Virus record (IMG/VR): IMGVR_UViG_2541047712_000002
Strand: one strand, 5' to 3'
From: a virus
Taxonomy: Duplodnaviria > Heunggongvirae > Uroviricota > Caudoviricetes
Length of the DNA: 64,000 nucleotides
This document shows positions 24,001-27,000 of this stretch, in pieces (position 1 is the first letter of the stretch; each line of letters begins with the position of its first letter). A program made the position numbers.

Positions 24001-27000
24001 CCGCAGCACGAGAGGATGGCATTTTGTCAGAGTCCATCGGTGAAACAACCAACATGTACCGTACCGGTAAAGCTGCAAACGTGCATGTGGCTCGTAGTAC
24101 CTGGCGCTTGCTGGTCAGTTACATCAACAACCGTATGATTGTTCGCCGTGCGTAACGCCAGTCGCATTATTTACTTTTGGTCTAAAGGGTTTTTGGCCAG
24201 TAATGAGAGCGACCGACAACAACAGGGAGAGAGCATGAATATTTCATGGCAAACAGAAATTGCGATCTACCGCTTTGGCGCAAAGAACGTTTACGGTGAG
24301 GCGCAATTACAATTCGTCAGGAAGACGAATGTCGGCGTGGTTAAGTTCGAACAGAGTAATGAGAAATCGTCAGTTCGTGCTGATAGCTCTGGTAGTCGTG
24401 GTAAGGCGAGTCTGGAGCTGTTTGATGCTGTGTTAGTTGTCCCTTTGGAAGCGGCTGTACAACTTGATGATGTACTGATCCTTGAAGGTCAAAAATTAAA
24501 GGTGTCCAGTGTTCATCGCCGCTGGGGGCTACGAGGAAGACCTGGGCATCTTGAAGTAGGGGCGAATATATGGGTCTGAAATACGATGCGCATCAGTTCA
24601 AACGTGCGGGGAATCGACTCAACAACAGCCAGAAAGCATTTAAGCGATATCTTATTCGGGACATGGAAAAGCTGGCGCGTTTGGTTGAGCGTCTCAGCCG
24701 TGCAATGGCCCCGCTGGAAACCGGATCTCTGGAGACAGCCATCTTTGCCAGGGTGATTAAAGAAGGTTATTCAGGGCTGCGTATTGAGCTTTCTGTGTCT
24801 GGAGCAAAACCACGTCAGGGGCATCCGGGCGTAGAAGTCGGTGACTATGCTAAGTACATGGAGCTGGGTAAATACCGACTCGGTTATCTTTCTCGAATGA
24901 AGAACGTGACAAACCCACCAATTGCCGGTGTTAAACCTCGTGTTGGGCCACACTTTCTGGAAAGAGCGGTGGAAATTAGCGAGAAGCAGTTCTCAGAAGC
25001 GATTCTTGAGGCTGCCAGAAAAGCCGGATTTACGAGAGGTTAATGTGTTTATTGAAGCGTTTGCAAGTTTGATGCAGAAGGCAAAGATTGGCACGGTCGG
25101 GACTGACATTTTCTGTCACTACTTGCCTGCCAATGTGAAATCTGGCGTCCTGCTTATTAACCCAAATACCGGTATCAGCATCGATCATGAGCTACAGGGC
25201 TTTTATCTCGAATCATTCACAATCATTGTGCGTGGTTCGTCAATTACTACGACGGTTGAGAAAGCCAATAAAATCATTGAGATGTTTCCAGTAGAGGAAA
25301 CGGAATCTGGTGGTGTTTATTTTCGACTTGTACGACCGATGGCGATGCCAATCATTTATCCCAAAAATGATGGGGCATTAATAGAAGCAGGCATTCCTGT
25401 TGAATTTGCTGGCTATTTATTGAATTAACTCAACTAGTAAGTATATACTTACTATTAGCGCAATGAATGCGTAGAATTAACGGAAAAAGGAGTTTTCCAT
25501 CAATGTCTAATACCCATGTAAAAAACATCAAACTTGGTGCCTGTAAGGTGTCGTTTGGTGGTGTGGATTTGGGTTACACCAAAGGTGGTGTTCAGGTTGA
25601 AGTAGCCACTGAAACGCTGAAAGTCACCGTCGATCAGTTGGGGCAGACCGTAATTTCCGAATTAGTTCAGGGGCGCAACATTACCATCACCGCGCCTCTG
25701 GCTGAGTCTGTACTCCAAAACATGGTTGACCTGATGCCTGGTTCTACTCTGAGCGAAGATGACAACTCTGTCACGATCACATCTGCACAGGGCGTTAACC
25801 TGATTGATGTGGCGAAGGAGCTGGTTCTGACTCCGCAGGACACCACCGACTATGTGTTGACCATCCCGAAAGCGGCAACCGCGGGCAACTTCACTATGAC
25901 CTACCAGTCTGATGATGTTCGTGTGTTCTCTGTTCAGTTCAGCGCATACCCGGATGATGAAGGCGTTCTGGGCAAAATGAGCGGTCCTAAACCGGTAAAA
26001 ACTGTGTCGATCTCACCGGAATCTCCAACCGTAAAAGCTGGAGAAACTGTGCAACTGACAGCCGAAATCACTCCAGCTGATGCCGCAGACAAAACCGGTG
26101 TTTGGGAATCCGAAGACCAGGAAAAGGCCACGGTAGATCAAACGGGTCTGGTACGTGGTGTGGCGCAGGGTTCTACAAATATCTCCTTCACCAGCAATAG
26201 CGGTGGTAAGAAGGCAACTAAGTCAGTAACGATTAACCCCGCAGATTAATCAGTAATTAAGCAGAGGCTCAGGATGAGCCTCTCTTTTAAAAGGATTTAA
26301 ACCAATGACCAAATTACTCGATCTCGATTCCATTCTGCCTCCGAAGAAAAGCATCAAATTTGGCGGTCAGGAATATCCCATCGTTGAAATGACGGTAGGT
26401 TTGTTCGTTTCCATCAAGCAGATGGAAGGCAAAGATCTCATGAACATGTCTCCTGTTGAGCAAGTGACAGCTTATGCAGATCTGGTTCGTAAGGTTATCC
26501 CTTCAGTACCTGACGAAGTTCTTGAAAAACTGACTGTTCCGCAACTCCAGCAGATCTTCACCTTCGCTATGGAAGTGATTGATGAAGAAAACGAAAAAGC
26601 GGCTGGCGAAGGGGCAAAGTAATTTCCCGCGATGAATCCGGGACAAGGACCGTCTCAATAGATCTCGGATTCTATTTCAGTCGTGTAGTTGCTCACTACG
26701 CCGTGTCGCCATTAGAGCTACTGAACGTTCCTCTCACGATGTTCTGGATGCTCAGTCGCAATATAGACCGTCTGCGTGCGGAAGAGGATGTCCGCAACTT
26801 ACAAGTCGCTCGTGCGTCCCAGGCGGATGGCGAGGCTGTGAAGGCGTTCATGGAGGGTTTGCAACTCAGGATTGGAAGACCAGTCGTAACAGATAAAGTC
26901 TACGATCCAAGCCAGGATAAGGCAGACCCTGACGCCAAAGAGCAACTGATGCAAATATTTGGCAGAGGATGACAAGGGAATGTCACAAAACGTAGAGTTT

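What the first reader, a model, noticed from the sequence alone, without database searches (positions are those of the whole stretch)
26585..26972. Candidate programmed -1 frameshift joining the G-like and T-like tail chaperone frames at a GAAAAAG tract
The -1 frame is open from about 26598 to 26972, while the G-like ORF stops at 26622. An A-run (GAAAAAG, about 26593-26599) sits in the overlap where single-tRNA-Lys slippage is possible, but it is not a canonical XXXYYYZ heptamer. The G/GT frameshift is conserved in long-tailed phages, so a non-canonical slippery site would be notable.
Basis: partly seen in the sequence, partly recalled or inferred. Interest (0 to 1): 0.4.

Follow-up and report, generated by a model that had tools for sequence, protein, structure and literature searches.

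The report
Unannotated tail-chaperone frameshift, relocated slip site

Summary
The sequence facts hold. A 105-aa ORF (26305-26622) lies between the major tail protein and tape measure genes. Its -1 frame is open from 26586 to 26972, and GAAAAAG sits at 26593-26599.

The frameshift interpretation is well supported by comparison, though not by experiment. The -1 frame stays open for 95-125 codons past the stop in every complete relative. Its first 28 codons lie upstream of any start codon yet evolve as coding sequence (pN/pS 0.2-0.3). No conserved start or Shine-Dalgarno exists. Distant cultured relatives carry canonical in-phase heptamers at the same place (G_GGA_AAA, G_GGA_AAG, A_AAA_AAA).

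The proposed slip site is wrong. GAAAAAG is out of phase (GAA|AAA|G). It is absent in eight diverged SSU5-family loci and two remoter relatives (L099, L100). In 43 of 97 loci, including SSU5, a -1-frame TGA cuts it off from T.

The invariant site is A_AAG plus UAA/UAG (26616-26622, heptamer G_GCA_AAG). Eight nt downstream lies a 16-bp bulged hairpin (26628-26685) with modest covariation support. A_AAG is the best single-tRNA slip motif known in E. coli.

The predicted product is a 222-aa GT fusion.

Verdict: a new, unannotated member of a known kind, of moderate-to-low interest.

The parts
25467..26249 (+). Major tail protein with an in-frame C-terminal Big_2 Ig-like domain. This is the upstream neighbour of G.
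   Evidence: Pfam Big_2 E 5.8e-26 and phrog_1280. It is preceded by a tail terminator gene at 25045-25428 (PF12691).
26305..26622 (+). G-like tail assembly chaperone ORF (105 aa), the 0-frame product.
   Evidence: ORF. It matches phrog_893 (function unknown) at E 4.5e-49. The AF2 model (pLDDT 71.5) is a beta-hairpin plus helices. Its best BFVD match is a 'Tail assembly chaperone' (E 2.8e-4, TM 0.67), with about nine more so named in the top 50 at weaker E-values. There is no Pfam hit for the protein itself.
26580..26585 (+). TGA TGA in the -1 frame. This is the upstream limit of the overlap in this lineage.
26593..26599 (+). It reads GAA|AAA|G in the G frame, is not conserved, and is at most a minor extra site in this lineage.
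   Evidence: It is lost in L090/L091, L092/L093, L094/L095, L097 and L098 and absent from L099 and L100. A -1-frame TGA separates it from T in 43 of 97 loci.
26613..26619 (+). Proposed shift site G_GCA_AAG. The functional core is A_AAG at 26616-26619. tRNA-Lys re-pairs from AAG (26617-19) to AAA (26616-18), and the next codon read is GUA (26619-21).
   Evidence: AAAGTA is invariant in all 28 distinct family sequences and kept in L099 and L100 at 48% and 38% G identity. It is the only slippery element inside the 10-nt overlap of most lineages. A_AA.G is the best Z_ZZN tetramer in E. coli (PMC4066793).
26620..26622 (+). 0-frame stop UAA directly after the slip codon (UAA or UAG in relatives).
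26628..26643 (+). 5' arm of the candidate stimulatory hairpin. It starts 8 nt after the slip site.
   Evidence: RNAalifold. 97.3% of cells are paired, 3 pairs carry double changes, and 1 of 500 shuffles reaches the score. With remote relatives, 89% are paired and the covariation score exceeds all 500 shuffles.
26663..26685 (+). 3' arm of the hairpin: 26663-26672 pairs with 26634-26643 and 26680-26685 pairs with 26628-26633. A 7-nt bulge lies at 26673-26679. This arm also encodes the conserved D-L-G-F-Y-F-S-R-V motif of T.
   Evidence: Synonymous-site variation is suppressed to 0.15-0.25 of expectation at 26670-26700.
26619..26972 (+). T-like part, read in the -1 frame (117 codons plus TGA). 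Fused to G it gives a predicted 222-aa GT protein.
   Evidence: It matches phrog_1131 at E 4.9e-40. Its peptide is conserved from the first codon. The first 28 codons have pN/pS 0.2-0.3 in this frame, while both other frames give pN above pS and contain stops.
26980..31554 (+). Tape measure protein, the downstream neighbour. It starts 8 nt after the T stop.
   Evidence: Pfam TMP_3 E 4.3e-27 and Tape_meas_lam_C E 6.1e-13. It is followed by gpM-, gpL- and gpK-like genes.

Best explanation
**What it is.** The two ORFs between the major tail protein and tape measure genes are the tail assembly chaperone pair of an SSU5-type siphovirus phage-plasmid.

**How it works.**
- Most ribosomes translate G (26305-26622) and terminate at UAA 26620-26622, giving a 105-aa protein.
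- A minority slip back one nucleotide on the last sense codon. tRNA-Lys (mnm5s2UUU) decoding AAG (26617-26619) re-pairs with AAA (26616-26618).
- Reading then continues GUA AUU UCC ... in the -1 frame to UGA 26970-26972.
- The result is a 222-aa GT fusion with the junction ...AAGEGAK-VISRDESG....

**Stimulators (inferred).**
- Only one tRNA can re-pair (G_GCA_AAG), so the site is of the tetramer (Z_ZZN) or hexamer (NNA_AAG) type.
- I infer that it relies on the adjacent stop codon, a slowly decoded A site if the slip happens in the P site.
- I also infer that it relies on a 16-bp bulged hairpin starting 8 nt downstream (26628-26685).
- By analogy with lambda, G would coat the tape measure protein and the T part would recruit the major tail protein, with G in large excess over GT.

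**Status of each step.**
- Shown here by comparative analysis: the frame relation, coding selection on the -1 frame from the junction onward, the absence of a conserved start, the invariance of A_AAG plus stop, and canonical heptamers at the same place in distant homologues.
- Inferred: the actual slippage, its efficiency, the role of the stop and the hairpin, and the chaperone function.
For: **1. Gene order.** The order is lambda-like: terminator, major tail protein, G, T, tape measure, then gpM-, gpL- and gpK-like genes.

**2. Frame and length.** T is in the -1 frame. It stays open for 110-125 codons past the G stop, ending just before the tape measure gene, in every complete metagenome or genome locus. 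In the three cultured distant phages it runs 95-115 codons.

**3. Coding signal upstream of any start.**
- The 28 codons between the G stop and the first possible start (26619-26702) vary at codon positions 1/2/3 in 11/3/22 columns.
- Their pN/pS is 0.2-0.3 in the -1 frame. Both other frames give pN above pS and contain stops.
- The peptide VI[ST]R[DE]E.G..T[VI]SID[LF]GFYFSRV is conserved from the first codon.

**4. No real start.**
- Three annotators chose three different starts: 26703 GTG, 26739 ATG and 26748 ATG.
- None has a Shine-Dalgarno sequence.
- GTG 26703 is GTA, GTC, GTT or ATT in relatives.

**5. Narrow shift window.** In 43 of 97 loci a -1-frame TGA leaves only 10 nt of overlap (AGGGGCAAAG). 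A_AAG is the only slippery element there. AAAGTA is invariant in 28 distinct sequences and in relatives down to 38% G identity.

**6. Canonical heptamers in homologues.** More distant homologues have in-phase canonical heptamers in the same short overlap.
- G_GGA_AAA in L101 and Pseudomonas phage hairong.
- G_GGA_AAG in Rhizobium phage V1VFA-S.
- A_AAA_AAA in Stenotrophomonas phage BUCTxx99.

**7. Published efficiency of the motif.**
- A_AA.G is by far the most efficient tetramer in E. coli: up to 5.6% with a downstream stimulator and about background without one (PMC4066793).
- NNA_AAG sites are used by IS1222 and occur in B. subtilis cdd (PMC5009743).

**8. Hairpin.**
- 97% of cells are paired, three pairs show compensatory change, and 1 of 500 shuffles reaches the score.
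- A covariance model recovers it in L100 (59 bits) and L099 (45 bits).
- On the 13-sequence alignment fitted to the covariance model, which leans towards the structure, the covariation score exceeds all 500 shuffles.
- Synonymous variation falls to 0.15-0.5 of expectation across 26557-26640 and 26670-26700.

**9. Fold of G.** The G model's best BFVD match is a 'Tail assembly chaperone' (E 2.8e-4), with more among the weaker hits.
Against: - There is no experimental evidence: no fusion protein has been detected, and none is annotated in any record examined.
- In this window the hairpin is not more stable than shuffled sequence (z -0.9).
- Both hairpin arms are also under protein-coding constraint, and the covariation rests on few events.
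- The outer 6-bp helix is half broken in the L093/L095 lineage.
- The P-site codon GCA cannot re-pair well with GGC, so efficiency could be very low.
- Neither G nor T matches the Pfam families of lambda gpG or gpT.
- The T model is of low confidence and its fold search was uninformative.
- In this particular lineage the -1 frame is also open at GAA_AAA_G, so a second minor shift site cannot be excluded.
Confidence: 0.75

Rival explanations
1. The shift occurs where the reader proposed. tRNA-Lys on AAA (26596-26598) slips to AAA (26595-26597) in GAA_AAA_G. This gives a GT fusion with the junction ...EENEK-SGWRRGK-VISR....
For: In this window and in 52 of 97 related loci the -1 frame is open from 26586, so such a shift would reach T. 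A_AA.A is one of the six tetramers measurably above background in E. coli (PMC4066793).
Against: - The tract is absent in eight diverged family loci and in L099 and L100.
- In 43 of 97 loci, including SSU5, a -1-frame TGA follows it, so a shift there would abort.
- A_AA.A ranks last of the six active tetramers, far below A_AA.G (PMC4066793).
- The conserved hairpin lies 29 nt downstream of it, too far to act as a stimulator.
- The one database protein with this junction (P0003) comes from an assembly with a second frame error a few codons later, so it is most likely an A-run sequencing error.
Confidence: 0.07
2. There is no frameshift. T is a separate small protein started at its own codon (GTG 26703, ATG 26739 or ATG 26748), as all current annotations assume.
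For: Gene callers and PGAP annotate it this way. ATG codons exist in the frame.
Against: - The called starts differ between annotators, and none has a Shine-Dalgarno sequence (best 3-4 of 6 matches to AGGAGG).
- GTG 26703 is not conserved.
- The 28 codons upstream of the first candidate start are under clear purifying selection in this frame and carry the most conserved motif of the protein, SIDLGFYFSRV.
- Distant homologues carry canonical slippery heptamers in the overlap.
Confidence: 0.08
3. Termination-reinitiation. Ribosomes finishing G at UAA restart on a nearby non-canonical codon in the -1 frame (for example AUU 26622-26624). They make a free T protein that includes the conserved N-terminus.
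For: AUU overlaps the stop (UAAUU) in this window. This would explain coding conservation right from the junction.
Against: - The codon at that position is ATT, GTT, ATA, GTA or ATC in relatives, so no start-like codon is conserved.
- It does not explain the invariant A_AAG, nor the canonical heptamers upstream of the stop in distant homologues.
- In lambda the covalent G-T link is what couples tape measure binding to tail tube recruitment (PMC5009743).
Confidence: 0.05

Closest known systems
Phage lambda gpG/gpGT tail assembly chaperone frameshift (Levin 1993; Xu 2004, 2013, 2014; reviewed in PMC5009743)
   Same: - The genes sit in the same position, between the major tail protein and tape measure genes.
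- The direction is -1 and the shift lies at the extreme 3' end of G.
- T has no start of its own.
- tRNA-Lys slips on AAG.
- The heptamer differs from lambda's G_GGA_AAG by one base (G_GCA_AAG).
   Different: - Only the A-site tRNA can re-pair.
- The slip codon is the last sense codon and abuts the stop.
- There is a candidate downstream hairpin.
- G and T have no detectable sequence similarity to the Pfam gpG or gpT families.
Tetramer/hexamer -1 sites A_AAG and NNA_AAG: IS1222 G_CGA_AAG, B. subtilis cdd A_CGA_AAG, synthetic constructs (PMC4066793, PMC5009743)
   Same: - Single-tRNA-Lys slippage occurs on A_AAG with a non-slippery 5' codon ending in A.
- The site depends on a downstream stimulator. 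Reported efficiency is up to about 5.6% with one, similar to the 30:1 G:GT ratio of lambda.
   Different: - The 5' codon here is GCA or GUA rather than CGA.
- The context is a phage tail chaperone rather than a transposase.
- A stop codon follows immediately.
E. coli dnaX -1 frameshift (A_AAA_AAG plus hairpin plus upstream SD-like element)
   Same: tRNA-Lys slips AAG>AAA, and a stem-loop lies a few nucleotides downstream.
   Different: - dnaX has a full heptamer and an upstream SD-like stimulator. No conserved SD-like element was seen here, because the GGGG upstream of the site varies.
- The dnaX shift truncates the product, whereas this one extends it.
'Shifty stop' frameshifting (Weiss 1987; prfB +1)
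   Same: The slip codon is directly followed by a stop codon, whose slow decoding can favour P-site slippage.
   Different: prfB shifts +1 and is autoregulatory. Here the shift is -1, and a regulatory role of the stop is speculation only.

Membership tests
Tail assembly chaperone G/GT -1 PRF system of long-tailed phages | Two overlapping ORFs located between the major tail protein gene and the tape measure gene | tested here: met
   Major tail protein 25467-26249, G 26305-26622, T to 26972, tape measure from 26980. gpM-, gpL- and gpK-like genes follow.
Tail assembly chaperone G/GT -1 PRF system of long-tailed phages | The second ORF is in the -1 frame, has no start or RBS of its own, and is coding from the overlap onward | tested here: met
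   Frame. No SD and inconsistent called starts. pN/pS is 0.2-0.3 for the 28 codons upstream of any start.
Tail assembly chaperone G/GT -1 PRF system of long-tailed phages | A conserved slippery sequence in the overlap | tested here: met
   A_AAG plus stop is invariant in the SSU5 clade and in L099 and L100. Canonical heptamers occupy the same place in L101, hairong, V1VFA-S and BUCTxx99.
Tail assembly chaperone G/GT -1 PRF system of long-tailed phages | Two proteins, G and GT, made at a fixed ratio with G in excess; both needed for tail assembly and absent from virions | not testable with these tools
   Needs western blot, mass spectrometry and genetics.
Tail assembly chaperone G/GT -1 PRF system of long-tailed phages | G has the tail assembly chaperone fold | tested here: inconclusive
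Lambda gpG (Pfam Phage_TAC_2) and gpT (Pfam Phage_tail_T) sequence families | Significant match to the family HMM | tested here: not met
   G, T and the fusion have no Pfam hit at E up to 1 apart from one chance-level, unrelated match (MGT5A_N, E 0.08-0.24). Only 3 of 71 remote G homologues touch Phage_TAC_7 weakly (best E 1.3e-4).
Canonical X_XXY_YYZ heptanucleotide -1 PRF | Both P-site and A-site tRNAs can re-pair in the -1 frame | tested here: not met
G_GCA_AAG: GCA>GGC leaves two mismatches, and only AAG>AAA re-pairs.
Z_ZZN tetramer / NNA_AAG hexamer -1 PRF | A_AAG in phase (AAG is a 0-frame codon preceded by A) | tested here: met
   0-frame codons GCA AAG TAA at 26614-26622.
Z_ZZN tetramer / NNA_AAG hexamer -1 PRF | A stimulatory element a few nucleotides downstream, without which tetramers are near background | tested here: inconclusive
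   There is a 16-bp bulged hairpin after an 8-nt spacer with covariation support. However, its stability z-score in the window is only -0.9, and both arms are also coding.
Z_ZZN tetramer / NNA_AAG hexamer -1 PRF | Measured -1 frameshifting at the site | not testable with these tools
   Needs a reporter assay.

The most novel reading that the evidence does not exclude
**Proposed reading.** The SSU5 clade may have replaced the ancestral two-tRNA heptamer, still present in its Pseudomonas, Rhizobium and Stenotrophomonas phage relatives, with a stop-adjacent single-tRNA design: A_AAG, then UAA/UAG, then a hairpin.

**Why it might be a module.** Some lineages use the same 'AAG-UAA' design a second time in the same tail module. 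There it attaches the Ig-like domain to the major tail protein (C_CCA_AAG_UAA in L092, L094 and L095).

**Consequence if true.** The stop codon would be an active part of the signal. The G:GT ratio, and the Ig decoration of the tail tube, would then be coupled to termination efficiency in the host. That would be a tunable 'shifty-stop' -1 module rather than a decayed heptamer.
Probability: 0.25. Interest if true: 0.5.

Novelty: new member of a known kind. Interest (0 to 1): 0.3.

Why it matters
**Annotation.**
- The locus is on roughly 110-kb plasmids in 232 of 5,426 complete E. coli genomes.
- It is also found in Salmonella, Klebsiella, Kluyvera, Yersinia pestis and Photorhabdus relatives.
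- In every record examined, G and T are two 'hypothetical proteins' with an arbitrary start for T.
- Recognising the fusion gives both genes a function and corrects the T gene model.
- The same correction extends to the related Nickievirus, rhizobiophage and Stenotrophomonas phage groups, which have unannotated canonical heptamers.

**Recoding biology.** This would be a natural phage example of a tetramer or hexamer A_AAG site adjacent to a stop. It comes with an evolutionary series, from heptamer to tetramer within one protein family, that could be used to test what compensates for the loss of P-site re-pairing.

It does not overturn anything. G/GT frameshifting is expected in siphoviruses, and A_AAG slippage is well characterised.

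Tried and rejected
- **Small hairpin UCCCG.CG/CG.CGGGA (26625-26643, 5-nt spacer).** It is well placed but shows no covariation (0 double changes, no different from shuffles), and it competes with the longer stem. I dropped it as the main stimulator.
- **Upstream SD-like stimulator.** The GGGG at 26611-26614 is not conserved (GAAGAA, GACGAC and GAAGAC in relatives). Rejected.
- **T domain structure.** The AF2 model was poor (pLDDT 65.9, pTM 0.41). The BFVD search found only one uncharacterised homologue. The label 'T-like' therefore rests on position and architecture only.
- **Search for an annotated or natural fusion protein.** The 222-aa fusion query found none. P0003 carries a fusion at the A5 run but has a second frame error, so it is probably a sequencing artefact.
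- **Genome-contig scan.** It gave only 7 loci. Diversity had to come from the look-up of encoding contigs and the phage collection.
- **Rfam.** No family matched in 26400-27100.
- **Literature.** No held paper combining SSU5 with frameshift concerns this locus, judged from titles and abstracts.
- **Transcriptional slippage.** I considered and rejected it. The A-runs are only 3 and 5 nt long, and the longer one is not conserved.
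Full report
**1. What the window is**

The stretch 25400-27400 is 99.4% identical to Escherichia phage Cyrano and 85% identical to Salmonella phage SSU5. The window therefore comes from an SSU5-type siphovirus phage-plasmid.

The same 750 bases occur on roughly 110-kb plasmids in 232 of 5,426 complete E. coli genomes, and never on a chromosome.

The local gene order is lambda-like:

| Gene | Coordinates | Evidence |
|---|---|---|
| Tail terminator | 25045-25428 | PF12691 |
| Major tail protein with C-terminal Big_2 domain | 25467-26249 | Pfam Big_2 |
| ORF 'G' | 26305-26622 | see section 5 |
| Second frame 'T' | to 26972 | see section 3 |
| Tape measure protein | 26980-31554 | TMP_3, Tape_meas_lam_C |
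| gpM-like | 31597-31932 | Phage_min_tail |
| gpL-like | 32018-32713 | Phage_tail_L |
| gpK-like | 32679-33503 | JAB plus NlpC/P60 |

**2. Checking the observation**

- G is ATG 26305 to TAA 26620-26622, 105 aa.
- Codons of G start at positions equal to 1 mod 3. Codons of the frame ending at 26972 start at 0 mod 3. That frame is therefore -1 relative to G.
- The only place a shift can happen is therefore 26586-26619.
- In the G frame this reads AGA... AAC GAA AAA GCG GCT GGC GAA GGG GCA AAG TAA.
- A second A-run, GCA_AAG followed by the stop (26614-26622), is phased as A_AAG.
- A 128-codon open frame has a probability of about 9e-4 at local composition.

**3. Is T really read by frameshifting?**

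I collected 97 related loci with an intact G gene from viral, genome and metagenome collections, down to 64% G identity. I added four more remote relatives at 31-48% identity and three cultured distant phages.

*The frame is kept.* In every complete locus from the metagenome and genome collections, the -1 frame stays open for 110-125 codons past the G stop and ends just before the tape measure gene. In the three cultured distant phages it runs 95-115 codons.

*It is coding from the junction.*
- The T-frame peptide is conserved from its very first codon: V-I-[ST]-R-[DE]-E-x-G-..-T-[VI]-S-I-D-[LF]-G-F-Y-F-S-R-V.
- The 28 codons between the G stop and the first possible start (GTG 26703) vary at codon positions 1/2/3 in 11/3/22 alignment columns.
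- Against the four most diverged full-length relatives compared (L089, L091, L093, L095), they have pS 0.36-0.70 and pN 0.07-0.15 in the -1 frame.
- The other two frames give pN above pS and contain stops.
- So this stretch, which every annotator treats as intergenic, is translated in the -1 frame.

*There is no credible start.*
- The Cyrano record starts T at GTG 26703, the SSU5 record at the equivalent of ATG 26739, and PGAP at ATG 26748.
- Database proteins for this ORF come in lengths of 74, 77, 81, 83, 86, 89, 108, 109 and 116 aa.
- None of the candidate starts has a Shine-Dalgarno sequence.
- GTG 26703 is GTA, GTC, GTT or ATT in relatives.

**4. Where is the shift site?**

*Against GAAAAAG.*
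- It is replaced by GAAGCC or GAAGCA in L090/L091, L092/L093, L094/L095, L097 and L098. It is also absent from L099 and L100.
- In 43 of 97 loci, including SSU5 itself, GGC is GGT. This creates a TGA in the -1 frame (C TGG TGA AGG) between GAAAAAG and the G stop.
- A shift at GAAAAAG would abort there, and only 10 nt of overlap remain (AGGGGCAAAG or variants).

*For A_AAG.*
- Within those 10 nt the only slippery element is A_AAG.
- AAAGTA is invariant in all 28 distinct sequences.
- The preceding codon is GCA or GUA, and the stop is UAA or UAG.
- L099 (48% identity) and L100 (38%) keep GCA_AAG_UAA and GCA_AAG_UAG.

*More distant homologues carry canonical in-phase heptamers in the same short overlap*:

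| Relative | Motif |
|---|---|
| L101 and Pseudomonas phage hairong | G_GGA_AAA |
| Rhizobium phage V1VFA-S | G_GGA_AAG |
| Stenotrophomonas phage BUCTxx99 | A_AAA_AAA |
| L102 | G_GGG_AAG plus UAA |

This series is the strongest argument that the whole family uses -1 frameshifting. It also suggests that the SSU5-clade site, G_GCA_AAG, is a one-tRNA derivative of the lambda-type G_GGA_AAG.

*The motif is known to work in E. coli.*
- Sharma et al. found A_AA.G to be by far the best of the 16 Z_ZZN tetramers. It reached 5.6% with a downstream pseudoknot and was about background without a stimulator (PMC4066793).
- The Atkins et al. review describes NNA_AAG sites, including IS1222 G_CGA_AAG and B. 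subtilis cdd A_CGA_AAG. Their efficiency depends on the wobble properties of the tRNA reading the 5' codon (PMC5009743).
- From my own knowledge, not tested here: GCA and GUA are both read in E. coli by cmo5U34 tRNAs, which have broad wobble. That fits the rule.

**5. Are G and T chaperones?**

- Sequence searches give only families of unknown function: phrog_893 for G and phrog_1131 for T. There is no meaningful Pfam hit.
- A profile search finds 433 remote G homologues of about 100-120 aa. Three of 71 touch Pfam Phage_TAC_7 weakly.
- The AF2 model of G (pLDDT 71.5) is a beta-hairpin followed by helices.
- Its best match among predicted viral structures is a protein named 'Tail assembly chaperone' (E 2.8e-4, TM 0.67). 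About nine more so named appear in the top 50 at weaker E-values.
- Solved structures gave nothing specific.
- The T model is poor and its fold search was uninformative.

The chaperone assignment therefore rests on gene position, architecture and a moderate fold match for G. It is not sequence membership in the lambda families.

**6. A downstream RNA element**

*The structure.* RNAalifold on 28 distinct sequences predicts a bulged hairpin. It starts 8 nt after the slip site, a normal spacing for a -1 stimulator.

| Element | Coordinates |
|---|---|
| Helix 1 | 26628-26633 pairs with 26680-26685 |
| Helix 2 | 26634-26643 pairs with 26663-26672 |
| Loop | 19 nt |
| Bulge | 7 nt |

*Support.*
- On the family alignment 97.3% of cells are paired and three pairs show changes on both sides (8 cells).
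- Only 1 of 500 shuffles reaches the observed score, and slid controls pair at 22-55%.
- A covariance model finds the element at the same place in L100 (59 bits) and L099 (45 bits), and weakly in L101 and L102.
- On that 13-sequence alignment 89% of cells pair, 10 cells show double changes, and the covariation score exceeds all 500 shuffles. This alignment is fitted to the model, so it leans towards the structure.
- Synonymous-site variation falls to 0.15-0.5 of expectation across 26557-26640 and 26670-26700.

*Caveats.*
- In the window itself the fold is no more stable than shuffles (z -0.9).
- Both arms are coding.
- The outer helix is half broken in the L093/L095 lineage.
- A smaller, better-spaced hairpin (26625-26643) has no covariation support.

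I regard the hairpin as likely but not established.

**7. Mechanism proposed**

- Most ribosomes terminate at UAA and release G (105 aa).
- A few per cent, by analogy with the 30:1 ratio of lambda (PMC5009743) and the tetramer data (PMC4066793), slip back one base on AAG.
- The slip could occur in the A site under tension from the hairpin. It could instead occur in the P site while the stop codon waits for a release factor.
- The ribosome then reads GUA AUU UCC... to UGA 26970-26972.
- The product is a 222-aa GT protein with the junction AAGEGAK-VISRDESG.
- The functional roles are inferred from lambda: G on the tape measure protein, and T recruiting the major tail protein.

**8. Rivals**

- A shift at GAA_AAA_G remains possible as a minor event in this lineage only.
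- Independent initiation of T is contradicted by the coding signal upstream of any start.
- Reinitiation at AUU 26622 is contradicted by the lack of conservation of that codon and by the heptamers in distant relatives.

**9. Novelty**

- G/GT frameshifting is a conserved feature of long-tailed phages, and A_AAG slippage is a known mechanism.
- Three things are new:
  - This large and clinically widespread phage-plasmid family, and its Nickievirus, rhizobiophage and Stenotrophomonas phage relatives, have the system unannotated.
  - The SSU5 clade uses a stop-adjacent single-tRNA site.
  - The protein family shows a transition from heptamer to tetramer.
- No held paper combining SSU5 with frameshift concerns this locus, judged from titles and abstracts.
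- I file it as a new member of a known kind, with interest 0.3.

Noticed in passing
L092:2150-2260, L094:2150-2260, L095:2150-2260 (equivalent to window ~25975-25995): In the Raoultella-type relatives the body of the major tail protein ends ...APK* on GCC CCA AAG TAA. The Big_2 Ig-like domain continues in the -1 frame (GPKVKVTGVTVSPAS...). This is a canonical C_CCA_AAG heptamer plus stop, so a second candidate -1 frameshift of the same 'AAG-UAA' design. In the window the Ig domain is fused in frame (GGT CCT AAA CCG GTA AAA).
   Followed up: partly
window 26841-26870 and 26931-27020: There are two further dips in synonymous-site variation. One lies inside T (0.15-0.27 of expectation). The other spans the end of T and the start of the tape measure gene (0.08-0.47). 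The second probably reflects the tape measure ribosome-binding and initiation region. The first is unexplained.
   Followed up: no
L104 (Pseudomonas phage hairong), L105 (Rhizobium phage V1VFA-S), L106 (Stenotrophomonas phage BUCTxx99): These distant cultured phages of about 106-122 kb have homologous G/T pairs, both annotated as hypothetical proteins. Each has an unannotated canonical slippery heptamer in the overlap: G_GGA_AAA, G_GGA_AAG and A_AAA_AAA.
   Followed up: partly
P0003 (ENA metagenome contig of 111,509 bp): This database protein fuses G to the -1 frame exactly at the A5 run of GAAAAAG (…EENEKSGWRRGKVISRDESG…) and then changes frame again a few codons later. It is most likely a homopolymer sequencing error, not evidence for a natural fusion.
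   Followed up: partly
window 26250-27000: The locus is present in 232 of 5,426 complete E. coli genomes, always on a plasmid and never on a chromosome. It also occurs in a 108-kb Yersinia pestis contig and in Kluyvera and Photorhabdus genomes.
   Followed up: partly
window 21923-22843: A 306-aa ORF upstream in the head-tail region looks, by eye, like several tandem Ig-like repeats (recurring ...TVxP...V..G.T..L.A...P..ATNK.VTW.S...A.ATVD..G.VTGV..G.A.I...). It is possibly a decoration protein. I did not analyse it.
   Followed up: no
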